Assembly: GCA_051294375.1 (NCBI GenBank)
Contig: CM119263.1
Coordinates: 22,346,833 to 22,410,832, forward strand
DNA length: 64,000 nucleotides
Reading direction: 5' to 3'
DNA from: Paraspadella gotoi
Taxonomy: Eukaryota; Animalia; Chaetognatha
The notes beneath the pieces were generated by a model. It worked only from the letters and a program-made list of their open reading frames with translations, did no database searches and had not been told where the DNA came from. A program made the translations under genes and the position numbers. Positions 2,049 through 55,000 of the stretch are shown here, one piece after another. The number at the start of each line of letters is the position of its first letter. Position 1 is the stretch's first letter.

Positions 2049-2465
<417 letters not shown>

Positions 2466-2497
2466 GGCGGTTGAAGAAAACCAAGAATACACCCACC

Positions 2498-2523
2498 CCA
2501 AAGGCCTTTTTTAAGGCCACCAA
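2498..2523 (+). promoter_or_regulatory. Histone 3' stem-loop (SLBP site)
   Basis: CCAAA-GGCCTT-TTTT-AAGGCC-ACCAA, with the 6-bp stem and 4-nt loop at 2503-2518. Purine-rich AAAAAGA follows at 2531 and AATAAA at 2545-2550. Confidence 0.9.
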
Positions 2524-10466: not shown

Positions 10467-12682
<2,216 letters not shown>

Positions 12683-20400: not shown

Positions 20401-23400
20401 CACTTTTTGCGTCAGCTCGTGACGTTGATCGAGGAGAACTACGCGGCGCTCAAGACTGCGACAGTTCTGGACACGGCCAGCAATCTGCCCGTCAACGGCC
20501 TCCTAATCGCCGTCCGTCTTTGCGTCGTCCTGAGGCCTTTTTTCGGTGTCGAAGTTTTGTCGGTCAAGGAAGAGAAAGATTTCTTGAGGCGGGAATACCT
20601 TCCGATCGCCGAAGATCTCGTCCGGCTGGGGAAGACGATCATTACGCAGATGCTCTCGTTTTTGGCAGGCGGGAATCTCGACAACCCGTCATTCGAGGAG
20701 ATGGGAAAAGCCATCGAGAGTCTCTGCTCGGACGTGGGGAGCAGCCATGGCAGCGACGGAGCTGCAGACGAAGACACTGCTGTTCCTTTAGAACATCAAC
20801 TCGTTCTCTCCTACTGTTGGCTCAATCTCAAGGAGTGTGCTGCTTTGCTTTCGTCACTCGTGTCTCCGAATTTCATCGTGAAAACCAACGAAGAAACCGG
20901 TGAAAATCTAATCAATCAATCAATTCACCAATAAATCAATCAATTCGTCTTTTCCCGATTTTTTCACTTCCCGTCTTAACTAATACGTAATAACTAAATC
21001 TCGTAACTTGATCGCAGGGCCGACCTCCATGCTATCCCTCTCAACCTTGGAAGAGATCGTCGAGTGCTTCAATATGATCATGACCCGATGTCGGCATCGC
21101 GGCGTCATCGAAGGCTGCAACACCGCCTTCTTCCGATTCACGATTCACGCGCTCTCGTTCGCCCCGGGAGATCCGGCCTCTCAAATTCCGGTGGAACTTT
21201 TGCGACGCGTCACTCAGAATTACGTGACCCAACCGGAAGTAGGCGCGATAGCGTCGGTGACGCGTCGTTCCGCAGGCCTGCCCCTGATCGTAGACTCGGT
21301 GCTAAGCGCCGTCTGCAAAAATAGCGCCAACTCGCAGGTGAAGATTAAATTTTATATTTTTACGGATGTTAATGTTGGTTGATTTGTGGCATTTAGTAAT
21401 AATAATTTTTCCCGCCTCTTCAGAAGCATTTGCTCAAAGAGACTCTGGGCGCGCTGCTCCAATGCATCAACACGCCGCAATCGGAGACTTCAGACGCGAC
21501 GACTGATTCGCCCCAAACGAACGCCATCCACATCGCAACGACGCTCTTCAAAAGCGCCGCCCTTGCCACGCCTATTCTCCCTTTCTTGGCCGATTTCGTT
21601 AAAGTCGCCATCGAAGGTCACAACAAGAATGTTTATTTTTAGTCGGATCTGCAAAAATGATGTCAGTCCGTCCGTGATTGGATGGATGGATTGGAATGAA
21701 ATTTTGTGTGTGGGTAGGGAAGTGTGTGATTGAGCTGGATATGAAGTTTCGATGGAATCGTCCGAGTGGAAATGAGTTTAAATGGAAAAAAACAAAAAAC
21801 CTGTTTCACTAATTGATTATGCTTCTTTTTCTTTTTCTTTTTATATTAAATGTAAATGCAAGATGTATTAACTAATCAAATAATTAATCAGTTACTTAAT
21901 CAATTTGTCAATTAATTAATCAATCAAAACAAACATTTCGGATCAAAATAAATTAAAATCAATTAATTTGATTAATTAATTAACTTGAATTAATTAATTC
22001 TTAATTGATTAATTACCGATAATGATCGTGGGCAGATCCGACATTGTTTGCTAAAACTTGTCATCATTACTAATGATTAGTCATCAGTCGGCAAGATCGA
22101 AAAGACGACGCCACTCTTGTTTTTTCTTCAGGATTTTCATCGGCCAGTTGGTCGGTGCGGAACGCGAGCACCCAACTATACGGCGCCCTCAGCTCGCGCC
22201 TCTTCGGCAACAAGCGCGCGCGTCACGATCTGGCGCCGGCTAACGCGCTCACTGTCCAAGAGTTCTTTGCCGTTCACGGCCAACTGGCTCCCTTTCTCTA
22301 CGATCAGGTGAGTGATCATTAAAGCGTAGCAAAAATATTAATATCAAGTTGAATTCTAATAGTAGAGCATGAACACTGAACAGGCTTGTACCAGTGAACA
22401 TTTTTAAATAAAAAAAATTCTCTTTTATTTTTAAATTTTCGCATTAGCCCTTTTTTATACATAGAAAATGCAAAAATTTTAAAATGTTTTTTTCTTATTT
22501 TTGAAAGCAGATTCGAATTCCTCACGAAAAGTAGATAAAAGGATATATAACTCTTTTTAGAAAATTATTTCAATATGTGGGTCAAAATGCTAAAAAACTG
22601 TTTAACTAACCTATAATTTAATTTTAGTATAAAAAGTATAAAAAATATATGTTTTTTTTAATTTTTAGCTAACTTCATGAAAAAATTTTTGATTAAGACT
22701 GATATTTTCTTTTATCAACTTTTTATGAGAAATTCGAATCTGCTTTCAAAACTAAAAAAAAAAAAAAAAAACTATTGTAAAATTTTGACTTTTCTATGGT
22801 ATAAAGTAAGTCTATCTGAGCTCAGTAAAGTACGGCAGTGGTTTCTTTCGTATAATCGGATTTGGCTCACGGGTAAGTATCATTTATAAATATGGTCGTA
22901 TGCGAAAATTGAGAAATTTAAAAAAAATTAAATATCAATGTTCTTTCTAGTACAAGACTGTTCATGAACAACTGTTCGAATTTTGATCTGCAACTTTCAC
23001 TACGCCTTAGTGAACATGTTGGTTGTTGGTTGGACGGTGGACGCTGGACAGTAGACAAGTCAAGTCAATTAAAGGCTAAACAATAAAACAGACTTAGCAC
23101 GTCTTGTCGTCTTATCCAAACTTGTCCATACTGATTTTTCTTTCTTTCTTTTTTTTTGCAACTTGTGTAGCAAATAACGAATATCACTTATTAATTATTT
23201 CCAGCTTACCAAAGCGACAACCTCAGAATCATCGCGCTCAGTCAAGTTCAACCCGGGAATCTTTCCAACGCTTTCCATCTTGGCTCGACTCACCGCGACG
23301 GGTAAATCATGAGACGATTTACATTTTTAAAAAATATTTATATTGTTTTTTATAATTTTTTTCTTTTAAGGAACGGAATCGAACGACGTTTTGGCTTCTT

Positions 23401-26400
23401 GGTTCGCCTTCTACGAGCCTCTGATTCGACTATTGGGTAGCCCCGTACTGGCTGTAAGGGAATTAGCTGGATCTGCGCTCGTCCCGATGTACAGGCGAGT
23501 TGTTTCCCATCCTTCAGTTAAAATTTTGGGGGATGTTGATTATTTTCGTTCTCCAACCAGGTCGAAGTCGGCGGAACGCGTCGTGCAAGATCTGATAAAC
23601 GACGTCATCCCCAACCTGCCCCTCGAGCCGGCTCTGTGTAAGAACTACAACCAGCTTCACGGATGTTTGCTGGCGATCAAGAGCGGCATCGATATTTTAA
23701 CGGAGGCTCAGATGAATGCGCCAAAGGAGGAAAAATATACGCTCTTTCAGGTTCCCGCCTATAGTACAGAGCGCAAAAGTAAGGGGGAAAAAACAGAATT
23801 TAGATCATCCTCAATTTTTGATTTTCAAAATACTAACTAATGATGTTTTGAGCATTTATCAATCAACGACATAACAGTTAGGTAGTACGTACAGTAGCAT
23901 CCGTCTAGAATTTCTGAGACGGCAAGCTCTTGTAACTCGAGTACAAATGATGATTTTAAAGAGAGCTTTTGTCTTGATATAGAGTACACATGTGGCTACT
24001 CCCCCTTCTGTAAGCCATTGCTCTACGACCAATTTTGGGACATCACAACTTATTGTAAAAAGGAGCTTCAGCCAGATTTGAACCTGAAGCCTTTTCATAA
24101 CGTTGAAATCCGGCGCGCAAAGCACTCGGCCAAATGATTTTCCAAAAAAAATTGTACAAATTAAATTATATAAAGCTTTAGGTTTGCTTTTAATTTTTGG
24201 GGGAAACAAATATTCAACGTTTGAAGGCAGAGATTTTGACATCCAAGTCCCAAGTTTTCCGATTCGTGACAGAACGTCGCAACGACGACGATTAATACGA
24301 AGAAAGCGAATATCTGGCTTATTTTGAAATTGAGGAAAAGTCAAAGCTGCGACGTTGAACATTTTCACGTTGCTTTTAAGGTGTTTTATTAGGTGTTTTT
24401 AACGAGTTGCTTATTGTGAAACAACTGAAACTGTTTTTATACATGGTCGCCTATTGTATCAATAATAATAAATAGGCTAATTCTTGGTAATGTTTTCTGA
24501 CTTTCAATTTTTGATCTTAACAGATCATAACACGTTGTAACATAAACAAGTTTGAGCAAACAATGTCGGATCTGCCCAATCATTAACGGTAATTAATTAA
24601 TTAATAATTAACTTAAGTTAATAATTAATTAATTAATTAACAAATTAATTATTTTGATCCGAAAGTTTGTTTGATTGATTAATTGACTGATTAATTAACT
24701 GATTAATTATTTAATTAATTAATACATCTTGCATTTACATTTAATATAAAAAGAAAAAAAAGCATAATCAATTGTTTTGTTTTGTTTTTTTTTTCCATTT
24801 AAACTCATTTCCACTCAAACGATTTCATCGAAACTTGGTTCCAGCTTAATCACACACTTTTCTACCCAAATACAAAATTTCAAATCAATTGCCCCATCCA
24901 CTCATGAGTAATTGGTGTTCAAATAGTAAATTTTTTTTCCCATTTAAACTAATTTCCACTTGGACGATTCCATCGAAACTTCATATCCAGCTCAATCACA
25001 CACTTTCCTACCCACACACAAAATTTCATTCCAATCCATTCTTCCAATCACGAGTAATTGGTATTTTTTGCTTAGGTGGGATGGACGGACGGACAGACGG
25101 ACATCTTTTTTTTTGCATAATTTGTTATAATTCGATGTTCTAACATGATATAAGTGAATTTCCGACAAGATTGAGGGACTGAAAGCAGATCCGACTAAAA
25201 AGAAAAGAAAAACCAAAATTTATATTGAGGTTTTTGAATAATTTTTTTAAATAACGAGATGGCCGAGTGTTAAAAACTAAGACTTCGACGCAAAATGGAA
25301 TAGTAGGATTCGAATCCCACTCAAGGTAAACTTTTACAATAAACTGCTATGTCCCAAAAGTGGTCGTAGAGCAATGGCTTACCGAAGGGGGAGTAGCCAT
25401 ATGAGTACTCGATAACAAGACAAAAACTCTCTTTCAAATTATCATTTGTACTCGAGTTACAGAGCTTGCCGGTCTCAGAAATTCTAGACGGATGCTACTG
25501 TAGTATGAAACAAATGCTTTCATTGCATCCTTTAAGATTCTCGCCATCCCAAACTATACTTGGATCGGACGCGGCGCCAATCCTTGTTTTCTGACTCGCG
25601 GCGTCTACATGGAATGCCTCCACGCGTTGCAGATTCAAATTCCGGAAATGATTTCCAAAGAAGTTCGTTTGACTCTCCTCAACGACTTCTGTTGCCAAAT
25701 TCTCGAGAATAATGGAAAAGAGGAGAGGGAAACGCCGATCAATAGGTTAACATAGAATAATTATGCAAACAAATGAAAGTCACGAACTTAACTAAATTAT
25801 ATAACATAATAAATAATATGTCCTAATCTTAATATTAAACGATTACATCAGCCCGATTTCCTCGCCGACCAACGACTTTCGCTCGACAGGGGCGCTTCCC
25901 GACACCAAATCGCCAGGAAGAGTGGATTGGATCCGCGACGTCGTAAAAATCCTCGGCCACCACTCGTTGGAGATCGAACTAAACAACACTCAGGTGAGGA
26001 GCGCACGCCATAACGTGGCAATTCCGATCATATGATCTACGGGCGGGTGCCGGGTAAAGCGAGCCCGCGTGCAAACACCAATGACGCCACGCTCTTGACG
26101 CTGTGGCTCCGTTTATCGGTCGCGCCCAGGAACGCGTGGGTGAAAAGACCGCGGGGAAAAAGTTGCCCGCTAACTTCGTCCCCGCAATTTATGATCTCTC
26201 TCGTTTTGTTTGGCTTCGACCAAGATAGGGCTCGTGACGTCAATCGGAATAGGCCTAATTATATTTTAAAGCCGTTTAATATAAATTAGTAAAATTCTTG
26301 TTAATCGAAATAAAAAGGACAGCTCAATGAAAAAACAATAACAAATAGTTTTCTAAAATAAAATTCTAAACTAAATTGAAGGAAGAAAACACTGGCACAC

Positions 26401-30100: not shown

Positions 30101-33100
30101 AGATAAACACTGAGCACACGACGATCGCTCAACTGCTGGAAAGCGCGGATTATGATGTGCGAATGGAAACCTTGGAATATTTGGTTAAAAACGTCGAGCT
30201 CGGAATTTCAAAGGTCATTGATTTATTGAGTTGGTTACATGAGATGATTACATCATTTACAGGGGTGGGACCATATATAGAGTCAAAATTTAAAAAATCA
30301 TTACTCTAAAACTCTTAATTATTTTTAAAATCTGAATAAATATTTGTATAATATTCTTTATATTTTAATATTTTAATCTTTTTGAAATTCTTTAATGCAA
30401 TGCTTTTTTTGATGCAGTAAAGGCAACTGCTCGATTTTCTCCGCGCGGTTTGGAAGTATAATGTTTGAAAAATTATTATTTAATCTTATTCTAAGATATA
30501 ACAGTTAAAAATATTATTTAGAAATATTCAATTATAGTATAATATTGCTTCTGGCAAAGTGTACATTGCATTTCGGTTTAAAATAATTTGAAGTAAGCAG
30601 GTACGGTTTGTTAAAATCTTTTTAAAATTTTGTCTTACTTACCTGAAAAAAAATTAAATAAGTTTAATTTGGACAGTGATGAAAAGCTTAAAATCAGGTC
30701 AATTGAAGATAAGACATAACACTGTCATGTTCAAAAACGACCACTGAAATTGAAAAATATTAACAAGTATGGCTTTAATACTATGCAATGTAAGGTGCGC
30801 GTATAAAAATAACAATGATTTGAAAACATCCACAACGCCCTGTAGTTGTTTAAAATTTGTTATTGTTTCATTGCATATGAAAGTAAAAAGACAGAAAAAT
30901 CTTTTGGCAACTATTTTATTATTGTATCTCAAATCGTTCAGACAGGGCAGGACGTTAAGTTTTGTCTCGATATATGGTCCCACCCCTGTATTTCTTATTT
31001 CTTATTTCTTTAATCTTGTTGAATCCGAATCAGATTTCGACGTTGAAACGTATTGGCCTCATGAACTTGCTCGTAAAGAAGCTTATCGAAGAGGAAGATC
31101 AACCAAGTGTAATGTTGATGGCCAGCATAATCGTCAAAGTCTGCTACAATAGCGGACTGCAACTCTTTCATTTGAGGCACTCATTTATAATAGATCATTA
31201 AGAGAATGTAATTTAAAATTGTTCACTTGAATTTTATTGTTGTTCCTTTAGTTGCGACTCTAGTGCGGATCTTCTCCTAGCGGACGTAGACGTCGACGCT
31301 CTTCTGAAGAAGCTTTTTCGCATTTCATCGACGTCTTCGAAAGGCGCCACTTGCGCCGCCCTGGCGTCGCCGCTGCTCGCCGCCGCCGTCAAACTGCGAC
31401 TCGGAGACGCTGACCTCAAACTGACCTTGTCGATGAAGCGTCTCTGCGACATCGTCCAGGCCGCCTCCAAACCGGAAGCAGCGGATCCCTTCCGGATCTA
31501 TGCCGCTCAAGCCGTCGTAATTGTGGGTGAGAATGAATAAATCTCCATAATGATAAATAAACTAGTTAAATAAGTAAAATTTAAAAACGAGAGATTATTT
31601 GACGACTGCCTATTATTCGGTGATCTAGGAATGGATATTTTGGAAATTGTCTCCAGTTCGCCTGAAATAGATGAAGACATTTACGCGGGCGTAAATTTGA
31701 TTCAAGCTATTCTTCATTTACTCGGTAAAAATATATACTATATAATATATAGTAAATATATAGTATTTATGAAATTGCACCGAAATAAACCAACCAATAT
31801 GAACACAGTGGATGAGAACGAAGAGGTGCGACACCAAATGGCGCCTTTTTGCACACAAATCTTCGACCGCCTCGAGCACACCTCAGTTTCTCGAGACGCC
31901 AACCCAACGCCGGTGCATCCGAACCTGGGACTCGAACAATTCTTTCAGCTCGTTCAAGGTTATTTATTCATTTGTTTATTTACAACATGTATCCCATTTT
32001 AAGAACAATACGAATTGAGGATTGCTTACAAAAAATATCTTGGAAATCTTTTCCTTTTTTCAACAGACCTATTCATTTGCTGGAGCGACGAAGGGGAGCT
32101 AGTTCATCTCATGCCACGCCCACTGATCGATTTTCTATGGGGAATTTTTACACAGGTTGGCGGTAAAATTTTACTTTCGCCCACTGGGATTTAAGCTACT
32201 AATATGAACATTAGGGTAGAGTGATGAAAAGATTTAGCGAGTTAATAATATTTTTTTGCTGCCTCTGTATATGTAATTAAAGAAAAGCATGCCATTAAAA
32301 AATTTTTGTTAGCAGAACAGGAAAGCAAATTTTATTTTCTTTGTAATAATATTCTTATAAATTTGTAAAATTTTGAGCAAACAATGCCGGATCTGCCCAC
32401 GATCATTAGCGGTAAGCAGCTGATCAGATAATTAATTAATTAATATTATTTTTTTTCATTTGTGTCAAAATCGTTTTTCACTTTGTCTCGCCTCTCAATC
32501 ACAAACAACAATCTCGATCACAAAATTAATTAATTAATTACAAATAATTAATAATTAATTACTTGAATTTACATATAAAAATAAAAAAAGCATAATCAAA
32601 TAGTGAAATAGATTGTTTGTTTTTTTCCATTTAAACTCATTTCCACTTGGACGATTCCATCGAAACTTTATTTCCTGCTCAATCACACACTTTACTACCC
32701 ACATACAAAATTTGAAGTCAATCACCCATTCATTCATGAGTAAATGGCGTTCAAATAATGAAATATATATATTTTTTTTCCATTTTAACTCATTTCCACT
32801 TTGACGATTTCATCGAAACTTGATTTACAGCTCAATCACACACTTTCCTACCCAAACACAATATTTCATTCCAATACATCAGTCAAATCACGAGGAATCG
32901 GTGTTTTTTGCTAAGGTGGGATGGACAGACAGACAGATGGACGGACGGACATAAGTTTTTTGCATAATTTATCATAATTCGATGTTCTGACATGATATAA
33001 GTGAATGCCCGACAAGATTGGGGGGGCGGACCGACAAAGTGAATTATAGAGCCGGAATCTGCTGTAAGCAGATCCGGCTAAAAAATTTAATAACAGATTC

Positions 33101-35227
33101 AGATTCGTCAGAAAAAAAAAGGAAACTTTTATAAAATATGTTATATGATATGTTAATGTTAAAGCTGCGAAAAACGACAAAATTGGTATATTATGGCAAC
33201 AGCCGGGTCACCTGTGATGCCCATTGGGGGCCATTGGGGCATCTCACTGTTGGCTTTGGGGGCTTCTGACCCTCAGTGACGCCTCCAGTCACTGGCGCGG
33301 TTACCCTAGGATAGTCTCACTTTGCCAACGCAGAGGTCGTTAGGACTGGATGGAATGCAACGCCTGGGATGGTGATAGTGATACTGATAGTAAACATGTA
33401 AAACATAGGTTTAGGGTTATTTCTTATCATTAAATTATATATTAAGCTTTGTAAAAATGATATATCTTATTTGATTAAAATTTTTGCTTTAACAATTTAA
33501 TGTTTCATATTAAATAATCAAGTAATTTAAAAAAAACACAAAAAAACCCACTTTTTAGTGGTTTTTTTTTGTTTTCTTTTTAGCTGGGTTTTTTGGGTGG
33601 GTTTTCTGGGGTGGGGTTTTTAATGCCAACCCTTCCCTCAACCGGGCCTCGCGTTCAACTCCATGTCTCTCCCAACCCTAACCCGGGCCCGGGCCTCCCA
33701 TACATCTCTGTGCCTCAATCCTAACCGCCTTCGACACATCACCCACAGGCCTCTCTCCCAACCCTAAACCGAGCCTCCCGTTCAACTCCGTACCTCTTTC
33801 CCAACCCTAACCCGGGCCCAGGCCTCCCGTACATCTCCGTGCCTCAACCCTAATGTCCCTCGCCAGTACTTTCCCTAACCCTAACGCGGGCCTCAACAAC
33901 ACCCTCCCTACCACTAAAATTGACATTAACATTAACCCTAAAATGAACTTAACTTAACTCAACCCTAAACTACTCAACCCTAACTTCTACCAACTTAGCC
34001 TTAACCCTAAATCATCTCTTTTGCATCGCTACATCTTACCAGCAAAAAATATCCTCGACGGCTGACGGCAGCGCCATGATGTGCGGCAGCATTATGATTC
34101 GGTCCGCGTCCGCGATGTTTCCCGTCTCCGACAGCGGCGCAACATCCGAATCAACGCCGGGCGGTTCTCCACGTGGAGGAAATCTGTCCGGGGCCCTGGA
34201 TTCCCTTAACGACGACGAGGACGAGGGCGTGGCCACGGCGGAGACAACGCAGAGATCGGGCCAATCATCGTCGAATTCTCACATCAGATGCCTCTTTGCT
34301 CAGGTTGAGACTTGATTTTAATTTTTAAACCATGAACCTTGACAAATTAAATTGTTTTTTATTACGATTAATATATGCCACCATGACCATATGTTACAGG
34401 ATGAGAATAACGTTTACATGGAACCCATGATTTTAAAGTGTCACGCACTCAAGTTGCTACGCGAAGATTGGTTGTTGCATTTTATGCAAAGAGATAGTCT
34501 GGTAAGAAGGTTTAGCCGGATCTGCTTACAGCAGATCTCGGCTCTATAATTCACTTTGTCGGTTCGTCAGACCCACCCCAAAAGCTTATCGGTATGATAC
34601 TTAGATCATGACAAAACATCGAATTATGATAAATTATGCCAAAATAACGATGTCCGTCCGTCTGTTTGTCCCCCTTAGCTTTGAACGCCAATTACTTATG
34701 AGTATATGGGGCGATTGACTTAAAATGTGGGTAGGAAAGTATGTGATTAAGCTGTAAATCAAGTTTCACTAATTGATTATGCTTCTTTTTATTTTTATAT
34801 TAAAATTCAATCGTCGTCGTTGCTTTTGTCGTGTCGAAAATATCTGAAAAACGTATCAGATTTAATTAATTAATTAACTTGAATTAATTGATTACTGCTA
34901 ATGATCGTGGGCAGATCCGGCATTGTTTGCTCAAACTTGTTTTTTAATCTACGGCTGTTTGATGCCTTCTCACTTGACACGGCAAATAAATGAAATCAAC
35001 AGGTCGCGCGTGAATTAGCCGTGGAAGTCAGCGAAACTTTAGCCAACGAAATGGTGCAGGATGACAGCGCCACTATCGAGGACGATCTCTTTGTTAAGAA
35101 AACCACTTTCACCAAACGATGCACGCACACCTTGTTGAAAGCTGCGTTGGCTTTTGACGGTGTGACCGAGAGAATCGCCCAAAGAAGTTCGCTCGATAGT
35201 ATTGATGACGACGACGACCTCGAATGA
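17416..35227 (+). CDS. THADA: THADA / Trm732-like HEAT-repeat protein (multi-exon)
   Basis: 3.5-kb first exon ([19 protein letters not shown]), then [50 protein letters not shown] and CLFAQ|DENNVYMEP spread over roughly 17 further exons. Several internal boundaries are approximate. Confidence 0.85.
21640..22061 (+). mobile_element. HINE-like family A copy (internally deleted)
   Basis: TAGTCGGATCTGC start and GCAGATCCGACATTGTTTGCTAAAACTTG end. Confidence 0.75.
22317..23012. mobile_element. Degenerate TIR element (MITE-like)
   Basis: Left CATTAAAGCGTAG..TGAACAGGCTTGTAC is an imperfect inverted match to right GTACAAGACTGTTCA..CTACGCCTTAGTG. Confidence 0.5.
24546..25197 (-). mobile_element. HINE-like family A copy nested in TIR element
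   Basis: Reverse-complement termini ACAAGTTTGAGCAAACAATGTCGGATCTGC...GCAGATCCGACTA. Confidence 0.8.
25255..25325 (+). pseudogene. tRNA-derived fragment (Leu/Ser-like pseudo-tRNA or SINE head)
   Basis: A-box-like GATGGCCGAGTGTT and B-box-like GGATTCGAATCCCACT, but no intact anticodon or acceptor stem. Confidence 0.5.
26435..29640 (-). CDS. DD3-3-like secreted protein, nested antisense in a THADA intron (~12 exons)
   Basis: Signal-like N-terminus then [110 protein letters not shown] and [15 protein letters not shown]; most splice junctions were traced and keep the frame. Confidence 0.85.
30260..30988. mobile_element. MITE, Tc1/mariner-type (TA TSD)
   Basis: TA|CAGGGGTGGGACCATATA...TATATGGTCCCACCCCTG|TA. 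Confidence 0.85.
32371..33080 (-). mobile_element. HINE-like family A copy
   Basis: Reverse-complement termini TTTGAGCAAACAATGCCGGATCTGC...GCAGATCCGGCTA. Confidence 0.8.
33190..33374 (-). mobile_element. Twister-motif retroposon, 5'-truncated copy
   Basis: Reverse complement of the 3' ~185 nt of the element at 39238 and 54463; 3' end intact, 5' end missing. Confidence 0.8.
33625..34010. repeat. C-rich degenerate tandem repeat with CCCTAA motifs
   Basis: Repeated CCAACCCTAACCCGGGCC..CCTCCC units; telomere-like hexamers are dispersed, not in a pure array. Confidence 0.6.
34513..34941 (+). mobile_element. HINE-like family A copy
   Basis: TAGCCGGATCTGC...GCAGATCCGGCATTGTTTGCTCAAACTTGT. Confidence 0.8.
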
Positions 35228-37537: not shown

Positions 37538-40500
37538 TTATAAGTCTAAAAAGATCACCCTCGGATCTTCAACGGCGCCCTTGATCTTCCTGAGAAAAGT
37601 GACCGCCTCCTTGCCGTCGATGAGACGGTGGTCGTAAGTGAGAGCTATGTACATCATTGGGCGAATTTCTACCTTTCCGGCGACGGCCACGGGTCTAAAA
37701 GCCAAGGAGAATTTATTTATATAAAATTTCCCACGCCAACGAATAGAAAATAACAAATCAACTTCTAAAACAAATGACAAAAAGGAGACATTTTAATGTT
37801 CTATCATCCACAGCAATACCGGAGCAAATACTGTTTTACCTAGGGAAAGTGCCGTGCATGCCGAGAATCGCGGATTGTGGAGGATTAATTATGGGCGTTC
37901 CCATTAAGGACCCGAAGACGCCACCGTTAGACACTGTGAACGTTCCACCGTCCATGTCTTCGATTGCGAGATCGCCTAACAAAAAATCCCGCATACAGGA
38001 TCAGTTGCGTCCGAGCCCCGATATAATATATATAATAATATATATATATATAATCCGGTGATGATCACTACCTTTCCGTGCCTTTTCGCCGAGATCGACG
38101 AGAGTCTGTTCGATGTGTACGTAATTCATTGTCTCTATATTTCGAATTACGGGAACGACAAGACCCTTGGGCGAGGCAACGGCGACGCTAATGTCGATAT
38201 AGTCTCTGTAAACCATTTCGTTGCCGTCGATGACTGCATTGACGACTGGTTGGTCTTGAAGGGCATAAGCAGAGGCTTTCAAAAATGCCGACATGAACCT
38301 GGCGAAAATGATAGGTCGTCAAACGCGACGGAGGTGACCACAAAATACTTCAACCACTATACCCCAATTTGATGCCGTGCTTCTTTTGAAACTGGTCTTG
38401 GTAGGTCTTCCTAAGTTCCATGATGTAACTCATGTCGATTTCGTTAAAGGTCGTCAGCATAGCGCAGGTGTTTTGCGCCTCCTGTAACGTATAAATATGT
38501 TCGTTATCGTAGGTTTGACGTCCGATTGGGTCGACGACAAAAGGAGGAACTGACTTTAAGCCGGGTCGCGATTCGAAGCCTCATCCTGTTCATCTTGACT
38601 CGGGTCTCCGCTCTCGTTCCGCCAATCACGTTGATATCCATGGCCTTTTGAGGCTTTACTGAAGAGGCGGGCGCCACAGCAGCCGGTTTTGACGGAGGTG
38701 GTGCGACCGTGGGTGGCGCAGAGGGTGGCGGGGCGGCCGCCGGTGCTGCAGGAGCAGCTGCTGGCGTCTCTTTTTTGGCAGCAGGTTTAGCGGGAGCGTC
38801 TCCTGCCTTAGAGTGGTCACAATTAATATTTAAAACAGTAAAAGAGAAATGGTATCTACACAAGGCCCATATTAAGTTACTGAAAATAATATAACCTTCA
38901 ACTTGAACAAATCCATTCCGGCTTCTACTCTTTCGCCATCTGGAATCAACAGTTCAACAATCGTTCCGTTCGCTGGAGACGGAACTGGAACAGAGGTCTT
39001 GTCAGTTTCAATCTCAGCCACCACCTGAATTAAAAATTGTTCTTTTAAAAATACTTGTCATAGATACTATAATCAATAGTTTCGTTTGAGAAAATAAAGT
39101 TATTGTTTTGTTTTCACAGTAATTTCCTTTTATTAGAAAAAAAAATCTTTAAAGCATTAGGATCCTCGCGGCCATCTATAATATTAGACCCCTGCAACGG
39201 CCTATGGGTAAAGAAGGAGGAAAACGAAGATAGTGTCGCGGTATATTCACACCGCCTCACGTCCACCATCCTTCAGCCAAATCCATTGGCTCAGAGGGGG
39301 AACAAACCATCCCAGGCGTAGTGTTCCATCCACAGTCCTCACGACTTCCCTTTGCGTTGGCAAAGCGAGACCGTCCTAGGGTAACCGCGCCAGTGACTGG
39401 ATGTGTCACTGAGGGTCGGAAGCCCCCAAAGCCAACAGTGAGATGCCCCATCCCAATGGGCATCACAGGCAACCCGGCTGTTGCCATAATAGTTTCTTTA
39501 AAAAAAAATTAAAACGTTACAACAAAGATATTAAATATGTTTATTTTATCAGACTTAAATTAGAATAATCGATAAGGGTAACAAATTCTTTAATTCTTTT
39601 TAAAATAACTCAATATTTTATTTATTAAATTTTAAATAATTTAAATATTATAAAATGATATTAATATAAATTTAAAATATAAAGTAATTTAAACTTAAAA
39701 GTTTGTGATTTAAAAATTATTTTTAAATTTAAACTTATCCTTGTGGATAAGGCGCTACGTGGGCTGAAGATGACTGTCCGTAACTTCTATAACCCCCTCT
39801 AGCAGCCATGGAACGGGTCCCTGGGCTTGAAACCAGGCTTGAGGGTTTGCCATGCCCCCAAGGCAGCTTACGGCCGTCCTCACGCTTCCCGAAGGGTAGG
39901 TACCGGGTTGGGATTGAACCCGATACCTAGTGGTCATGAGTTGATGGCTTTACTCAATGAGCCACCGGGTCACAACTGAAAGTGTCATGATTCTAGGCGG
40001 GGTGAACCTAGGCAATGCCCGACTACATCCTTAACCCTAAACTTATCCTTAACCCTAAACTTATCCTTAACCCTAAACTTATCCTTAACCCTAAACTTAT
40101 CCTTAACCCGAGAATGTTTTTTTGTGATTGAGAGGCAAGAAAGTGGAAAATGATTTTGACACGAATAAAAAAAATTAATTAATTAATGAATTAATTATCG
40201 AGGGCAGATCCGGCATTGTTTGCTCAAACTTGTTATTTTTAAGATCAGATTCAGGTATCTTGCAAAAAGTTGTCTGCACAAAGTATAATTCTTGAGGTTA
40301 AAAATAAGTTAGCAGTAAGTTATTGTTATGGGTAATAAGTTATGGGGAATAAGTTTGGGTTAGGAATAAGTTTGGGTTAGGAATAATAAGTGATAATCAC
40401 AAAAAAAAACTATATTACTCTGTAAATATCTAACAAAGGTAATTAAAAAAATATTACAATTAATATTTAAAAAAACATTTTTTAAAGAATTAAAAATAAA

Positions 40501-43500: not shown

Positions 43501-45264
43501 AAAATCTGACTACCCAAATTGCAAACGAGATTGCCAGAAATTCGGGTAAAAAAACAGTTGTAAAAACACACGATTCCGATAGCGTTACATCTTAAGAGCT
43601 AGCCAAATTCGTCTTATGGCATTTGATAAAGGATTTAATATCAAACAAGCCAGGGGAAATGCACTAGTCATCTCCGGAGAATTTTCAAACCTTGTTTTTA
43701 CTATAGAAATGAAAGGGAAATTTTGCTTTTCAAAAATTGTAAACGGGGCTAGGGTATGTTAACATTATAAATATTACTTCGAATTTTGAGATTTAAAAAG
43801 CCTCTTGTCTCAAGAGCTTGCCAAATTTTTCTTTTCATTATTGACCAAACTCTTCATAGTAAACCAACATTGTAAAGTCCATTGGTCTGGTTTGACAACA
43901 TGAAATTTTTATTTAATAAGAAATTAAAAGGAAGGTTGAGAGAAAAACTGATTTTTCCTGATATCTCTTGAAGGAACAAAGATACAGGGATGGCAATAGT
44001 ACCAAAATGAAGCCATAATCATTAGGCACATACAAGTTATAATATTAGAATTATTTTTGCTGAAACCTCTTTACAGGGTGAGTGTCAAACTAAGTCAAAA
44101 TTATAATGAATTTTAAAACTAATGAAACCCATAAAAATAAATGAAAATTAAATTCTTTTTTAGTGATTCTGAAAGAAAAAAGGCTAAATTGTACTATAGT
44201 AAAACTTTAAAGTTTTTTGGATAATGAAAATATAATTTTTTTTCACTTAAATATTTGCTTCACTGATATTACAAGCATGCTTACAAATTCTACAAAATAT
44301 TATTCACCCCATCACAGCCTAACTATTTATCTTTCTTTTCCACCAGCAAAAAGTAAACATTATTTTATGTTAGAGAACAGGGATGTTTACTGAAATGAGC
44401 TGGAAGACGTTAGACTACTTCACTTTAATGTCATTTTTCAATAATAAAATAGGCGAATCTTTTAATTATTTAACTCTCACAGGCTTCACAAGACATTTTA
44501 CTTTCATAATATCCCAATGTTAATGTTATTCATTATAATTTTTTCGCAGAAATCATAAAATAACAGAAAGTTATGGATTCCTTTCGCTCGTTTAAGAAAA
44601 AAAAATTAACTAGCGGAATTATAAGTTTGTAAGAGGAAGTTCAGAATCGGCAAAAATCTTAAAAGGCGAGAATGTTGAAAAAAGGGGTGGAATTTTGATG
44701 GGTTTCCTAAGATTTCTCCACAATGTGAGGTCCGATTAAAGCGAAACTTGAGATTTACAATATTCCCGTCATTCCACATCTATCGATATAAAAATATAAG
44801 AAAAAAGTCACTGGCTTCTTTTTCTATAGCGGCTTCCTACGTAAAGAAACAAACTTTATTTTTTCTCTTCTTTCTCATCGTTTTCCCATAAGCCTCCGGG
44901 ATTCCGGAATTTCGGCATTCCTGGAGATCAATGCTCTCTGGAGGCTTATGGGAAAACGAAGAGCAAGATTTTTTTAAAGAATTAACAGAAAAAACGACAA
45001 CGACGACGACGACGACGACGCCACTTATGCGCAAAAGCGTTACAATATCGTCGCAAACGCTAAGCGATTGCGACGATAAAAAAATAATAATAATATTTAC
45101 AAAGTAACAGTTTTTATTTATGATTACAATGGTGTTTTAGCGAAAACAAAGTTTAGAGTTTATACTACAACGATTTTTTAATTAATATAAACAGACATGT
45201 TTCGACTCTTGTTCGAGCCTTCATCAGTGTTTGACAGACTATCAAAAACTTTTGCAAAAGTAAA

Positions 45265-45295
<31 letters not shown>

Positions 45296-45753
45296 GGCAG
45301 AGTTAAAGTTTCCAACAAAGTGGTGAGACAGAATAGTGGTCAGAGGTGAGGACAGGTGAAGGCAAGGACAGATTGAGTGAGTTTTTGAAAAAGAAAGTGA
45401 AATGGTCAAACAGAGAGAGAGAGAGGTAATATGATACATTTGTGCAATGTACAACAAAGATATAAGTTTTTAAAGTGGAAATAACAATTAGCTAAATAAT
45501 AAATTAAATTAAAAATAGAAATTGAAATAATTTAATTTATTATTTAGCTAATTGTTATTTCCACTTTAAAAGCTTATATCTTTGTTGTACATTGCACAAA
45601 TGTATCATATTACCTCTCTCTCTCTCACTTTCTCTCTGTTTGACCATTTCACTTTCTTTTTCAAAAACTCACTCAATCTGTCCTTGCCTTCACCTGTCCT
45701 CACCTCTGACCACTATTCTGTCTCACCACTTTGTTGGAAACTTTAACTCTGTG

Positions 45754-45784
<31 letters not shown>

Positions 45785-47592
45785 TTTACTTTTGCAAAAA
45801 GTTTTTGATAGTCTGTCAAACACTGATGAAGGCTCGAACAAGATTCGAAACATGTCTGTTTATATTAAATAAAAAATCGTTGTAGTATAAACTCTAAACT
45901 TTGTTTTCGCTAAAACACCAAAACACAACGAAACGAAAGGAATACCACATTATGATTACAATGGTTTAATAATTCGGAACGAGTGAAAGATATCAAGGTT
46001 AAAATTGCTTCTCTATCTCTCAAAGTTAGTATCCAAATATTTATTAAAACTATTAAAACTGGTTGATGAAGGTTCAAAAAACAAGAACTAAAACATATCA
46101 GAATTATTAAATGATCGTTGTTATCACAAATAAAAACTTATTTTATAAATATCGATCAAAGGCAATGAAAAAAAAATATTATAATTAATTTTTTTAAAGA
46201 ATTAAAAAGAAGCTTAAAAACTTTTTTAATATTGTTGTTACGGTCTTAAATTTTCTTTTTTGTAAAGAAATGAACTTTATTTTTTTCCTCTTCTTTTTCT
46301 TCATTTTCCCATAAGCCTCCAGAGCGAATTCAACTCCGGGATCGCCGAAAAACCTTGCTCTTCCTTCTCCCATAAGCAGCCATAGGGGTCTCAATTAAAA
46401 AGGCGAAAGATTTTTGACTCAAATAAAATTAATAGATAAATTACCTGATCGACAGAGACGGCATCTCCAACTTCCACTTCCCATCTTACATCTCCTTCGG
46501 AGATTGATTCGGCAAAAGCTGGGCATTTTACAGTCTGAATATCATCTAGTTTAATCGAGGTGGTGTGAAATTCCTTTTGCGTTTGGGTAGTTCCTCCAAA
46601 TGGACCAAGCAACAAGGTTCTGAAAAGGAAGTAATAAAAATTAAAAAAAATAACTGGGTAACTTTACTATTCGACGTCCGCAACCAACCTATAGCGTCGA
46701 GTCTGTTTGTGCAGTAATATATACTTTTTTGTGCAGTAGTACAAATTTTATAATTTTATAATTAATAATTTTTTAAAATTTATTTTAATTGCTATTTTTA
46801 TGTTTGAGGTAGAAAATGAAACAAATTTCGGACATATTTCGACTTCAATGTAAGCCTTCATCAGCGCAAAAATGAATTGATTTGTAAAACAAATATTTTT
46901 ACAGACTCTCTCTCTTCAAACTTCAAAGTCTGTTAAAATATTTGTTTCACAAATAAATACGTTTTTGCGCTGATTGAATCCGAAACATGTCCAAAATTTA
47001 TGTTTCTTAATAAAACTCGTATGTAAACAAACAATTCATTTTCCATCTCAAACAAATAACGCAAGGAAAAAAAAATAATTTGATGTTATAATTTTTAAAC
47101 GGTTAGCAACTGGGTTAAGGGTGGTTGCTGGTTAGGGAGTAGGAGTGGTTAGGGATTAGGGGTAGTTAGGGTTAGGAGAGGTTTCGAAATAATATTTGTA
47201 ATAAAAAGTTTTTCTCACCAAGTTAACAGTATCTTTTTTAAAATTTTTAAATAGAAAGCTTTCCATACGTTGCTCATCATAAGACCGAAAAATCCCAGTC
47301 GGCGAATGTAAAAATAAGCCAAACAACAAATATTGTTAGAAATTTGGGCATTCTTGCTAATAGAGAATTAATTGGAAGTAATAATAACTATTATTTTAGC
47401 ATTCTGATTTCGGTACTCTTGCACGCATGCAACAACTCACCGATTGCTTCGATTTACTGCCAGAGATCCTACATTTCTTGCGATACATTGCCGTGTCGAT
47501 GTCTTTAACGTTATTTCGAAGCGATTGACGTCGCCCGGCGTCCTCTTGATTTTATAAATATTTTTGAAATGTCTTACAAATTTAGACGCCAT
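37538..47592 (-). CDS. DLST: Dihydrolipoamide succinyltransferase (OGDC E2)
   Basis: Lipoyl domain ([23 protein letters not shown]), PA-rich linker, [47 protein letters not shown] and [18 protein letters not shown] introns traced; a 7.4-kb TE-rich intron spans ~39025-46444. Confidence 0.95.
39238..39490 (+). mobile_element. 253-bp structured retroposon containing a P5-type twister ribozyme motif (39356-39436)
   Basis: Near-identical to 54463-54715; flanked by a possible TSD ATAGTGTC/ATAGTTTC; antisense to DLST. Confidence 0.8.
39727..39971 (-). mobile_element. tRNA-derived SINE with degenerate twister-like body
   Basis: On the minus strand: A-box TGGCTCATTGAG, B-box GGTTCAATCCC, then a GC-rich body with CCTGG-TTTCAAGC-CCAGG and an AT-rich tail. 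Confidence 0.7.
40027..40109. repeat. 18-bp tandem repeat (ATCCTTAACCCTAAACTT), ~4.6 copies
   Basis: Directly visible; followed by a HINE-A 3' end remnant to ~40233. Confidence 0.9.
40243..40791. mobile_element. Non-autonomous DNA transposon with ~50-bp TIRs, TTAA-flanked (Kolobok-like)
   Basis: TTAA|GATCAGATTCAGGTATCTTGCAAAAAGTTGTCTGCACAAAGTATAATT...AATTATACTTTGTGTGGACAACATTTTGCAAGCGACCTGAATCTTATC|TTAA. The internal segment also matches ~1060-1275. Confidence 0.7.
41365..43460. mobile_element. Kolobok-like non-autonomous element (TTAA TSD, GG..CC ends)
   Basis: TTAA|GGGGACCCAGTGAT...ATCACTGGGTTCCC|TTAA; encloses a hammerhead-bearing fragment. Confidence 0.7.
42446..42494 (-). ncRNA. Minimal hammerhead motif (PLE-type, decayed stem I)
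   Basis: CTGATGA-A-GGCTT-gcattca-AAGCC-GAAACGTTTCGAAACGTTTC on the minus strand. Confidence 0.6.
45189..45232 (-). ncRNA. Minimal type I hammerhead ribozyme (intact core)
   Basis: AAACA-CTGATGA-A-GGCTC-gaacaa-GAGTC-GAAAC-AT-GTC|TGTTT: stem I 5 bp, stem II 5 bp, palindromic ACATGT stem III, GUC cleavage triplet. Confidence 0.85.
45818..45861 (+). ncRNA. Minimal type I hammerhead ribozyme (one stem II mismatch)
   Basis: AAACA-CTGATGA-A-GGCTC-gaacaa-GATTC-GAAACATGTC|TGTTT. Confidence 0.8.
46801..47055. mobile_element. Second, older inverted PLE-like remnant with hammerhead motifs
   Basis: Minus-strand CTGATGA-A-GGCTT..AAGTC-GAAATATGTC at ~46826-46870 and a deleted plus-strand partner CTGATTGAATCCGAAACATGTC at ~46970; outer ends are inverted. 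Confidence 0.65.
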
Positions 47593-52043: not shown

Positions 52044-55000
52044 ATGCCGTTTGTTGCCAAGACTTCTAAATTATGTTTCACTTACTGTGTCACCGTTCAA
52101 ATCCGACATGCCAGCAGAATCACAAAGTATAAACGTCCCTTTGTTGGTGGAATCTATAAGAAAATACAACTTCCTTATTCTCCATCTATTGAGAGCGAAT
52201 ATGCGGAGCACAGTCTTCGTCCCTCTATCCCGTCTCAGTTTCCCGACGGTAGGCCTTGAATATTCAGGATATTTATAATTTTAAAATTTTTTTCTATTTC
52301 GTGAATATTTTTTTATCGTTGAAATCGCTTGCGCTTGCGACAATTTTGTGACGATGGTCCCAATAAATGGCGTCGTCGACGTTGTCGGAGTTCCAAATGA
52401 TATGATATAATATATATTATATGTATATTATTATTTATATTATTTATTATATAATATATATTATTCTTGAAAACTGATGAGTTGATATATTAAATCTTGT
52501 TTGTTTACATTTTATATGAACAAAACAAATTTCTTTTATTTACAGTGATTTCAATCTGGATTTTGGAGTGATACGTAAAGATTTGATTAAACTCATAATT
52601 CTTTCAGTATATATTATTTTTATAACATTTCTTAGTTAAGAAATTATTTTACGTTTAAGTTGACCAAAAAATATTCGGACGAGTAGCGGGGTATGAAATA
52701 CTACCGCTACATACTAATCAGTAATCAGTTCTCAAGCGCGAAGTCAATTTTCTCCCTTTTTTTCCCAGATTTTAACAGTTAATTTTTAATGCTGATTGTC
52801 AAGTTATCCGACTTAAAACTGAAATTTTTGGTTTTAAAAAGTCTGTTTAGTGATTTGTTATTCTAAAAAAAATTTTCATGTAAAACCTTACTATGATAAC
52901 TATTACCCCGTGTCCGTTCGCGAGTGACACCAAAAAAATCTTTACTATAGTTTAAATATTTATATAATTCATAAGTATATCATTAGTTGGAGAAATACTG
53001 GACGTTTTTTATGTATAAGTTTTATGTTTAATTCATTTACTATTCTATGTTATAAAAAGCACAGAAGATATTCAAACGGTTTTTAGTGTGAAGAGTGAAG
53101 TCCTGCCCAAACGACGAATCCCGAATGATCGCGAGAAATAGATGAGCCAAAAGTTAATCTCTCTATTTGGGAGACATAAAGAGCATCTTAGTTGAAGATG
53201 ATCATCTGGAATTTACAATTTCATTTTTTATATATAATCTATATATTAAGCCAAGTTGTTATGCATCAAATTTGTTTTTTTGAGTATCAAAATTTGTTTT
53301 GGGTTTAGATTTTTTTTAATGAAATTTGTACAACCAATAAAAAAATTATCCATTCATTTAAGAAATAAGCTATCTTGCCCCTAACTTTGGACAGGCTTTG
53401 GTGGTTTAAGGCCTCCATCACTCTTACAGGATAATGACATAGCAGGTCCCTGCAAGCTTTCAATCAATACTGCGATTGCGACGATCCTTATGCTTTTAAG
53501 AGTAACATTAATATCGTAGGAATCTGGGGGAAAATGTCACGGGAGCAAGCTTGGAAATTCCATGAGCGCAAAACCGAGTTGCTGAAGAAACAGTCGGTGC
53601 GGGCCAGGCTCCAGGTTAGCGGGAAATACATTATTAATATTATTACATTTTGTCTCTTGCTCGTTAATGAAAATTCTTTTTATTTTACAGGAAATAACCG
53701 GCCTGGAAACAAAGGAAAAAATGAAACGCTGGAAGATTGAAGCTGATGGCGAGCTCCCATTCGGATTTCCTTTCCTCCAATTCATCACCAAGACAGAGCT
53801 CCATCGAGATGTGCCCTCGGAATATCTCGTCTCTCCTAAATGTGATCTGGAAAACTTAGAGAGAAAAATTGTCGACAAACTATCGTTGATCGAAGCCAAA
53901 GGTGGCGACGTCAAGGAGAGGGTCGGCTCTCTGGTGGAAGTCGTCAAAGAGTCGATCGTTTCGTCCACCGATCTCGGCCACCTCGTTGACGGTCAGTTTG
54001 ACCGGGAGACGGTTTTCGAGGCGGGCTGGAGACGTTTCGGGTTCGAGATGGACGACATTGAAGATCACGGTAAAGGAGAGAGAGAAGGGAGTTTGATTTA
54101 TTTTACAGCGTTGCTAATACAAAGATTATTTTGTCTTTCCAATACGATCATTTCATTACCATTTAATTTTTCTTCCTTTTTCTCCGGTTTTTTGTTTTAA
54201 TTTTTTGATTTGAGCAAATTTGTCATCAGGACCAAAGACGAAGAATTGGTTTAGATCATGGGGAAAATACCTACCCGTCGGAGAATACAAACATGAAGAC
54301 CCCGGAATCATCAATTTTCAAGCGCGCTCCTCACCTTTCTTGGCTTATCGAACCAAGCATCCTATAATTCCCGATGCTGGGGATCTCAGTGGAAAGGAAG
54401 AAATTGGGTAAGTAAGAAATTGTTTTAATTTTAAAATAAGTAGATGAAAATATAATTTTGTGGCGGTATATTCACACCGCCTCACGTCCACCATCCTTCA
54501 GCCAAATGCATTGGCTCAGAGGGGGAACACACCATCCCAGGCGTAGTGTTCCATCCACAGTCCTAACGACTTCCCTCTGCGTTGGCAAAGCGAGACCGTC
54601 CTAGGGTAACCGCGCCAGTGACTGGAGGCGTCACTGAGGGTCGGAAGCCCCCAAAGCCAACAGTGAGATGCCCCATCCCAATGGGCATCACAGGCAACCC
54701 GGCTGTTGCCATAATTTGACTTTTTTTTTTTTTTTACCCCAGCTCTGATCCCTTCGTCCATTCGTGGGTTTCCTATGATTCGAATAGCATTCCCCTTTAC
54801 GCTTACCATCCTTCTGCCTTCGGACTGACCAGCGAAGTCGTTCCTCCAACGATCAACCCTGGTTTTAAGTTGCAGCCGATCAAATCCTTCGATTGGGTTC
54901 ATCGTCCCTCTCAAAGAGCACGTAATTGGAGACGCCTCTCCGAATACGGTAAAGTCAGCTACGCTTATGAGGAATTTAACCCGGAAACGCACGCGGGCGT

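What the first reader, a model, noticed from the sequence alone, without database searches (positions are those of the whole stretch)
54463..54715. A 253-bp non-coding retroposon built around a permuted (P5-type) twister ribozyme, 3 copies in 22 kb
Seen: the same GC-rich element at 39238-39490 (+), 54463-54715 (+) and, 5'-truncated, at 33190-33374 (-). It has no ORF, Pol III boxes or TIRs and is almost all hairpins (GCGGT/ACCGC, AGCCAA/TTGGCT, GGAACAC/GTGTTCC, GATGCCC/GGGCATC, GGCAAC/GTTGCC). Its core (54581-54661) follows the twister order P5-P2'-GA-T1'-P1-U|AA-P2-GC-P3-P4/L4(T-CGG-AAG-C)-P5', with both pseudoknots possible (T1 CGG/CCG, T2 GC/GC). Known: twisters self-cleave at U|A, occur in P1/P3/P5 permutations and associate with RTE-type retroelements. 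Inference: this is a non-autonomous twister-bearing retroposon. 5' truncation and a candidate TSD (ATAGTGTC/ATAGTTTC) suggest TPRT. The cut lies mid-element, so propagation may need tandem or circular RNA intermediates, or suppressed cleavage. P1 is only a palindromic CCTAGG, which could allow dimer pairing. Caveats: one C-A mismatch in P2 and an A-C at the base of P4.
Basis: partly seen in the sequence, partly recalled or inferred. Interest (0 to 1): 0.85.

Follow-up and report, generated by a model that had tools for sequence, protein, structure and literature searches.

The report
Twister ribozyme in animal solo LTRs
A 255-base repeat in an animal genome, flanked by exact 4-base duplications, is likely the leftover end repeat (solo LTR) of a tiny non-coding retrotransposon; it carries tRNA-like promoter boxes and a fold predicted to be a self-cutting twister RNA, which in a complete element would cut out a unit-length RNA that likely closes into a circle, a design our literature searches found only in plants with a different ribozyme.

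Summary
The repeat and its P5-order twister fold are real; the LINE/TPRT reading is not supported. True ends are 54459-54713 and 39234-39488 (255 bp, TGT...ATA), each with an exact 4-bp duplication (ATTT, ATAG). Contig ends in other runs pile up at the same ends, and in one run continue into a primer-binding-site-like sequence. This is integrase-type anatomy: likely a solo LTR of a Helenus-like TRIM. Box A/B-like motifs are present. A second, unrelated-in-sequence LTR (40027-39742, minus; TG...CA, TSD AGGA) carries the same twister order with different stems and pseudoknot letters and again a palindromic P1. The descriptor hits only these three full LTRs (0 of 20,000 shuffles each). Against: Rfam twister scores are far below threshold, P2 has a fixed C-A mismatch, a rival fold is 9 kcal/mol better without pseudoknots, no two-LTR copy lies in this window, and cleavage and circles are untested. 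The mid-element cut is what an LTR retrozyme predicts. The ribozyme sits where ribozyme-less Helenus LTRs have a T-run terminator. The scan reported this system before on other pieces of the same genome. New variant of a known kind.

The parts
54459..54713 (+). Family A element, 255 bp, TGT...ATA ends; likely solo LTR
54455..54458 (+). Left target-site duplication ATTT
54714..54717 (+). Right target-site duplication ATTT
54462..54481 (+). 5' hairpin
54512..54523 (+). Pol III box A-like motif
54546..54558 (+). Box B-like motif (one mismatch) in a T-arm-like hairpin
   Evidence: for the motif; hairpin read from the sequence
54581..54661 (+). Predicted type-P5 twister: P5 54581-86/54656-61, P2' 54590-93, GA 54594-95, T1' 54596-98, P1 54599-606, P2 54610-13, T2 54614-15/54647-48, P3 54616-36, P4 54638-40/54649-51, L4 54641-48
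54599..54606 (+). Stunted, self-complementary P1 (predicted self-dimer -11.0 kcal/mol)
54607..54608 (+). Predicted cleavage site U|A (untested)
54667..54710 (+). Two 3' hairpins before the LTR end
39234..39488 (+). Second full family A copy, 7 differences, TSD ATAG at 39230-33 and 39489-92; twister core intact
33192..33374 (-). Third family A copy, lacks the first 70 nt, 89% identical, T1 partly broken
39742..40027 (-). Family B solo LTR, 286 bp, TGT...ACA, TSD AGGA, box A 39964, box B 39920, twister-order core with predicted cut after 39870
54408..54742 (+). 335-nt GT...AG intron of the mitochondrial ribosomal protein S30 (PDCD9) gene that holds the element in sense orientation (76 nt without it)

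Best explanation
The element is a 255-base non-coding insertion with exact 4-base duplications that is likely a solo LTR of a Helenus-type miniature LTR retrotransposon, and its twister-type fold is predicted to cut the RNA of complete two-LTR copies once in each LTR, releasing a unit-length RNA that would be circularised and likely copied and inserted by a Gypsy helper. Shown: ends, 4-bp TSDs, many copies, the twister order in two LTR families, box A/B-like motifs upstream, no T-run of four in either LTR. Inferred: Pol III starts near box A of the 5' LTR; both twisters cut at U|A, perhaps helped by pairing of the two palindromic P1 strands; the unit RNA has no terminal repeat and so needs a circle for reverse transcription, as in plant LTR retrozymes; a tRNA (Trp-like) primes at the PBS; solo copies come from LTR recombination or from short cDNAs. 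About 0.85 for 'solo LTR carrying a twister fold', about 0.55 for the whole cycle.
For: Exact 4-bp TSDs on 2 of 2 full copies (chance about 2e-4 for both from flank composition, ends chosen) and on family B, where the TSD repeats four letters of the tandem unit it interrupts. Loose ends pile at 39234 and 39488-39491 with unrelated AT-rich flanks in 4 of 4 runs. In run X1, 11 contigs leaving the 3' end give a consensus that matches the tRNA-Trp PBS printed in Fig. S2 of PMC10886601 at 9 of 10 letters after a 2-nt spacer. Relaxed descriptor: 3 hits in the window, the two full A copies and family B; 0 of 20,000 shuffles for each family, 0 in 40 window shuffles. A and B share almost no sequence (best local match 12 nt) yet keep GA, U|AA, GC/GC, U-NNN-AAGC, with T1 changed from CCG/CGG to GGA/UUC and different P3, P4, P5 stems. 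None of 34 variant sites among the 36 element rows shown falls in the 32 core positions (Fisher p 0.011). Natural twisters tolerate P1, P2 and basal P4 defects (PMC11662667, sections 32-33) and P1 is dispensable (PMC5408937 passages). Plant retrozymes have the same layout with 4-bp TSDs, solo LTRs and circles (PMC4918200 passages). Two wasp Helenus LTR consensus sequences hold a hammerhead core behind the tRNA part (read by eye).
Against: No two-LTR copy, internal region or PPT was seen in this window; no genome was held. The PBS-like consensus has agreement 0.61, comes from the run that may be the source of the DNA, and the same place in X2 and X3 shows only AT-rich flank. Rfam: twister-P1 17.1 bits against 67.2, Twister-P5 14.3 against 37.6 on family B. 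The P2 pair next to the active site is C-A in 3 of 3 A copies, and P2 of the single B copy is poor. Without pseudoknot energy the twister-compatible fold is 9.1 kcal/mol worse than the best fold, and P2/P4 pairs have probabilities of 0.05 and 0.01. 18 variant rows were not shown, 4 of the 34 sites are private to the reference copy, and the 3' 52 nt are also conserved. Family A ends in TA, not CA. ARAGORN and Rfam see no tRNA. The tolerance data of PMC11662667 are for type-P1 twisters only. Cleavage, Pol III transcription and circles are untested.
Confidence: 0.55

Rival explanations
1. Same element and an active twister, but the ribozyme is a leaky 3'-end former that stands in for the Pol III terminator. 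Transcripts that escape cutting in the 5' LTR and are cut in the 3' LTR keep a terminal repeat (about 100 nt, from the Pol III start to U54607) and replicate as ordinary linear TRIM RNA, without a circle.
For: Neither LTR has a T-run of four on the sense strand (longest 2 and 3), whereas 26 of 26 complete fungal Helenus LTRs in part 1 of the supplement show one shortly behind box B, and the hammerhead-bearing Helenus-2_SyJa LTR shows none (counted by eye). Cassandra starts in the 5' LTR and stops in the 3' LTR (PMC10886601). The stunted P1, the C-A pair and the competing fold would suit partial cutting.
Against: The one LTR system with a tested ribozyme makes circles (PMC4918200 passages). Palindromic P1 in both families suits simultaneous cutting of both LTRs. 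No RNA-end data were available.
Confidence: 0.22
2. An ordinary Helenus-type TRIM whose twister fold is inherited but inactive or irrelevant in family A.
For: Sub-threshold Rfam scores, fixed C-A mismatch, competing fold; two sense-strand copies sit in introns of housekeeping genes (mRpS30 for A, the DLST-like gene for B).
Against: All catalytic and pseudoknot positions are intact in a young family (97% identical copies), variants avoid the core, and a second family keeps the fold with changed pairs.
Confidence: 0.13
3. One reading: a non-LTR retroposon inserted by TPRT with help from a LINE or a Penelope-like element.
For: One copy lacks its 5' 70 nt; twisters are known at the 5' end of RTE-type LINEs (PMC8501958; PMC7761336 passage).
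Against: Fixed-length 4-bp TSDs, TG start, no poly-A or repeat tail, sharp 5' ends in many copies, PBS-like continuation; the cut is internal, not beside the TSD.
Confidence: 0.05
4. A miniature DNA transposon (Ginger-like MITE; TGT ends and 4-bp TSD are recalled features of that group) that happens to carry structured RNA motifs.
For: TGT start and 4-bp TSD; the ends match at 5 of 6 letters as an inverted repeat (sequence).
Against: No longer terminal inverted repeat; strand-specific promoter boxes and ribozyme fold; PBS-like continuation.
Confidence: 0.05

Closest known systems
Helenus TRIMs / TRIMp3 (Kojima 2024, PMC10886601; main text parts 1-4 of 6, supplement parts 1 and 10 of 11 and motif searches read)
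   Same: Short non-coding LTRs with tRNA-type box A/B, 4-bp TSD in animals, solo LTRs, tRNA-primed PBS shared with Gypsy; some consensus LTRs also end in TA.
   Different: No ribozyme is reported in Helenus (the word occurs only in a reference title); the tRNA-like part of family A is degenerate; the T-run behind box B is absent and a twister fold stands there. Helenus-2_SyJa and -2_SyUm hold an unannotated hammerhead core at that place.
Plant LTR retrozymes (Cervera et al. 2016, PMC4918200; passages read)
   Same: A self-contained ribozyme in the middle of a non-coding LTR, 4-bp TSD, solo LTRs, PBS, proposed Gypsy helper.
   Different: Type III hammerhead rather than twister, plants rather than an animal, about 350-bp LTRs without reported tRNA-type boxes in the passages read; circles shown there, untested here.
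Type-P5 twister ribozyme (Rfam RF02684; PMC5408937 passages)
   Same: Ends in P5; conserved GA, U|AA, GC/GC, U-NNN-AAGC loop; T1 and T2 pairable; P3 present.
   Different: P1 reduced to a palindrome, first P2 pair C-A, Rfam score far below threshold, located in a high-copy animal LTR.
Twister T-variants of Schistosoma Perere-3 (PMC8501958; abstract and discussion read)
   Same: Twister in an animal retroelement.
   Different: Non-LTR element, cut at the 5' end beside the TSD, which supplies P1; here the cut is internal and P1 is encoded by the element.
Dimeric minimal hammerheads of Penelope-like elements and amphibian non-LTR retrozymes (PMC6765202, PMC7229834; passages read)
   Same: A stunted palindromic stem next to the cut site that can be completed by two copies.
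   Different: Different ribozyme class; tandem non-LTR repeats without PBS or 4-bp TSD.

Membership tests
Twister ribozyme, type P5 | Order P5-P2'-GA-T1'-P1-U|AA-P2-GC-P3-P4/L4-P5 with conserved core letters | tested here: met
Twister ribozyme, type P5 | Pseudoknots T1 and T2 can pair | tested here: met
   T1 CCG/CGG, T2 GC/GC; family B GGA/UUC with one wobble
Twister ribozyme, type P5 | P2 of four Watson-Crick pairs and a formed P1 | tested here: not met
   3 of 4 P2 pairs; P1 2 bp plus a 4-nt loop. Such defects are tolerated in type-P1 twisters
Twister ribozyme, type P5 | Rfam model at gathering score | tested here: not met
   none at gathering; 15.2 and 17.1 bits twister-P1; 14.3 bits Twister-P5 on family B
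Twister ribozyme, type P5 | Covariation support | tested here: inconclusive
   changed but pairable T1, P3, P4, P5 between families A and B, only two families; variants avoid the core; no R-scape-type test possible
Twister ribozyme, type P5 | Site-specific self-cleavage | not testable with these tools
   needs in vitro assay
Helenus / TRIMp3 | 4-bp TSD (animals) and LTR-type ends | tested here: met
   family A ends TG...TA, family B TG...CA
Helenus / TRIMp3 | tRNA-like sequence with box A and box B in the LTR | tested here: inconclusive
   box A plus box B with one mismatch, 123 of 20,000 shuffles; family B boxes 44 nt apart; no ARAGORN or Rfam tRNA hit
Helenus / TRIMp3 | Two LTRs around a short internal part with PBS and PPT | tested here: inconclusive
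   none in the window; PBS-like continuation in 11 contigs of one run; no PPT seen
LTR retrozyme | Hammerhead (type III) ribozyme in each LTR | tested here: not met
   no hammerhead hit; twister fold instead
LTR retrozyme | Unit-length linear and circular RNA between the two cut sites | not testable with these tools
   only assembled contigs were served
Non-LTR (TPRT) retroposon with 5' twister | Cut at the 5' end beside a longer TSD, 3' tail | tested here: not met
   cut 149 nt inside; 4-bp TSD, no tail
Ginger-like MITE (features recalled) | Long terminal inverted repeats | tested here: not met
   only 5 of 6 terminal letters match

The most novel reading that the evidence does not exclude
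An animal LTR retrozyme whose twisters work as a swapped pair: the palindromic P1 is completed only when two LTRs lie in one transcript, so complete elements cut out a circle-forming RNA while the thousands of solo LTRs in host introns stay nearly silent. With the hammerhead-bearing wasp Helenus families, this would make tRNA-promoter LTR retrozymes an animal class in which the ribozyme is an exchangeable part that has replaced the Pol III terminator.
Probability: 0.27. Interest if true: 0.85.

Novelty: new variant of a known kind. Interest (0 to 1): 0.64.

Why it matters
Most twister ribozymes in animal genomes have no known job. A self-contained P5-type twister inside the LTR of a high-copy animal TRIM would give one, extend LTR retrozymes from plants and hammerheads to animals and twisters, and suggest a new source of genome-encoded circular RNA. 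The palindromic P1 makes a sharp, cheap test of whether a natural twister acts as a dimer, and the missing terminator makes a test of how Pol III-driven LTR elements define their RNA ends.

Tried and rejected
No whole genome was held, so copies could not be collected. Exact-pattern scans found no relatives: viral contigs 0, 1 and 0 matches (the one match has no twister stems), prokaryote genomes 0, metagenome contigs 71 matches of which none passed the full descriptor (2 partial core hits) and none resembled the element by blastn. No RNA holder was on record; run X9 is a guessed RNA run that does join exons across a 7.4-kb intron, but it is another sample, held as contigs, so its depth and its spliced mRpS30 contig say nothing firm about expression, cutting or tolerance of the intronic copy. 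No go-back joint was listed (59 joints unshown, one dropped); an LTR-derived circle would not give one inside the LTR, so this is no evidence either way. Runs X10-X12 (another organism, biofilm metagenomes) hold little at low depth and were not used as evidence; X5 shows a C-to-T pattern like converted DNA and its variants were set aside. Sequence-only MAFFT did not align family B's twister to family A's; the correspondence rests on the descriptor. The P1-type reading that uses the downstream GUGAGA fails at T1. The G-C to A-U double change in T1 of the third copy lies at CpG sites and is not counted as covariation. No reverse transcriptase or integrase family among 27 of 56 long ORFs scanned. 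Motif searches of the Helenus supplement found no twister L4 (12 exact motifs); this is not a full scan. PMC6154101 gave no passage on P5.

Full report
Observation. The element is present three times in the window: 54460-54715, 39235-39490 (97.3% identical) and 33374-33190 on the minus strand (89%, lacking the first 70 nt). It folds better than shuffles (z -3.2). The host is an animal with a gene-dense genome (histone H3 with its stem-loop); the best named matches of one enzyme are copepod proteins at about 55% identity, which places it only loosely. No genome was held.

True ends. Laying contigs of four runs on the 39-kb copy shows loose ends piling up before 39234 and behind 39488-39491, with unrelated AT-rich flanks (24 of 731 loose-end rows shown). 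With these ends both full copies are 255 bp, start TGT, end ATA and are flanked by exact 4-bp duplications, ATTT at 54455-58/54714-17 and ATAG at 39230-33/39489-92. Contigs of X2 and X3 cross the left junction of the 39-kb copy without a difference (records 9 and 17), so the insertion is not an assembly artefact. Summed contig depth on the element is about 7,000 (X2) and 20,000 (X3) times the flank; the tool warns that this is no copy number, but it points to thousands of dispersed copies. In run X1, 11 contigs that leave the 3' end give a consensus that, after two letters, matches at 9 of 10 positions the tRNA-Trp primer-binding site printed in Fig. S2 of PMC10886601. This is modest evidence: agreement is 0.61, X1 may be the source of the window, and X2 and X3 show only flank at that place. 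Short fixed TSDs, a TG start, no tail and a PBS-like continuation are LTR/integrase features.

Promoter boxes. A box A starts at 54512 and a box B with one mismatch at 54548; the pair arises in 123 of 20,000 shuffles (consensus recalled, pattern fixed after seeing the sequence). ARAGORN and Rfam find no tRNA, so the likeness is at box level only. [quoted passage not shown]

The twister. A P5-order descriptor hit only the two full copies; 0 full hits in 20,000 element shuffles, 1 in 60 window shuffles, and 0 among 72 collection loci picked by the linear motif. All core letters are present, T1 is CCG/CGG and T2 GC/GC. Rfam gives only partial, sub-threshold matches (15.2 and 17.1 bits to twister-P1, gathering 67.2). 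Defects: a C-A pair at the base of P2 in 3 of 3 copies, a P1 of two pairs, and a competing fold that is 9.1 kcal/mol better when pseudoknots are not scored. In a test of about 2,600 type-P1 twisters, defects in P1, P2 and most of P4 were tolerated while defects in the pseudoknots and at catalytic letters were not (PMC11662667, sections 32-33); P1 can be removed (PMC5408937, passages). Among the 36 element rows shown (18 rows unshown), none of 34 variant sites lies in the 32 core positions (p 0.011; 4 sites are private to the reference copy), and the only sites at 5% or more inside the ribozyme are in the P3 loop.

A second family in the same window. At 40027-39742 on the minus strand lies a 286-bp element with TGT...ACA ends and TSD AGGA, which repeats four letters of the tandem unit it interrupts. 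It has clearer boxes, 44 nt apart, and behind them the same twister order with T1 GGA/UUC, an 8-bp P3, a 5-bp P4 and a different P5; P2 is poor in this single copy. A descriptor loosened to admit it gives 3 hits in the window and 0 of 20,000 shuffles per family, 0 in 40 window shuffles. Its best Rfam twister match is Twister-P5 at 14.3 bits (gathering 37.6). A and B share only a 12-nt local match, so the fold, not the sequence, is what is kept. Both have a self-complementary P1 (predicted self-dimers -11.0 and -10.7 kcal/mol). One contig of X2 shows another palindrome at the family A P1 (table 5c), a single weak hint; the variant A54603T breaks the palindrome at about 2%.

Setting. The 54-kb copy lies in sense in a 335-nt intron of the mitochondrial ribosomal protein S30 gene; the 39-kb copy (antisense) and family B (sense) lie in one 7.4-kb intron that an X9 contig skips (gene named DLST-like from its translation by my recall). 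A 2026 preprint reports that hammerhead non-LTR retrozymes of vertebrates are excluded from introns (10.64898/2026.07.22.740005, abstract); two sense intronic copies here suggest, but do not show, that single copies cut slowly.

Mechanism. In an LTR, a mid-element cut is expected: a transcript of LTR-internal-LTR holds two ribozymes, and double cutting yields a unit-length RNA without terminal repeat, which in plant retrozymes is circularised and proposed to be copied by Gypsy enzymes, giving solo, full or multimeric cDNAs (PMC4918200, passages). I take this as the best explanation (0.55). Neither LTR has a T-run of four, while 26 of 26 complete fungal Helenus LTRs in supplement part 1 show one just behind box B, and Helenus-2_SyJa, which holds a hammerhead core there, shows none (by eye). 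The ribozyme thus stands where the terminator stands. That allows a rival: leaky cutting that leaves a linear RNA with a terminal repeat (0.22). Inactivity (0.13), TPRT (0.05) and a MITE (0.05) follow.

Known and new. It works like a plant LTR retrozyme and is built like an animal Helenus LTR; it fails strict membership of the first (no hammerhead), and membership of the second is open (two-LTR form not seen here). Eight library searches (listings, with passages or sections of 13 papers) returned no paper describing a twister in an LTR or TRIM, or a natural palindrome-dependent twister dimer; the library lacks most subscription papers, I did not read the original twister paper, and I saw only parts of the Helenus supplement and no supplements of the other papers. 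Reviews place LTR retrozymes in plants and describe animal retrozymes as non-LTR. I had reached 'solo LTR with a twister' before opening the scan's notes; those notes (unreviewed) report the same system in 29-30 other windows of this genome, including two-LTR copies, one with 749 minus 494 = 255 bases per LTR, and led me to the Helenus paper and the Pol III boxes. I could not check their loci. Verdict: real feature, new variant of a known kind, interest 0.64.

Noticed in passing
window 39742-40027 (-): Second solo-LTR family (TG...CA, TSD AGGA) with tRNA-type boxes and a twister-order core with palindromic P1; single copy in the window.
   Followed up: yes
PMC10886601 supplement, Helenus-2_SyJa-LTR and Helenus-2_SyUm-LTR: Both wasp LTR consensus sequences hold a type III-like hammerhead core behind the tRNA part and no T-run of four in the SyJa LTR; the paper does not mention it. 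Read by eye only.
   Followed up: partly
window 3870-4890, 6226-6951, 21675-22061, 24544-25177, 32369-33091, 34503-34767: Another dispersed repeat family of 400-700 bp with a terminal hairpin, a GTCC-type microsatellite and AT-rich repeats; resembles DINE-1/Helentron-type elements by recall.
   Followed up: no
window 45130-45920: Long nearly perfect inverted repeat of about 790 bp (arms 96-98% complementary), MITE-like or a fold-back.
   Followed up: no
window 23890-24060 and 25332-25502: 171-bp inverted arms 1.3 kb apart; a box A/B pair lies at 24132 (-).
   Followed up: no
window 2049-2543: Single histone H3 gene with its 3' stem-loop.
   Followed up: no
window 10467-15688 (-): Two tandem genes with uracil-DNA-glycosylase-family domains (TDG-like), one intron-poor.
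   Followed up: no
window 40028-40110: 18-bp tandem repeat containing TTTAGGG-like units, interrupted by the family B LTR.
   Followed up: partly
window 39130-39179: Short stretch with raised depth in runs X2 and X3, upstream of the 39-kb copy: probably the end of another repeat.
   Followed up: no
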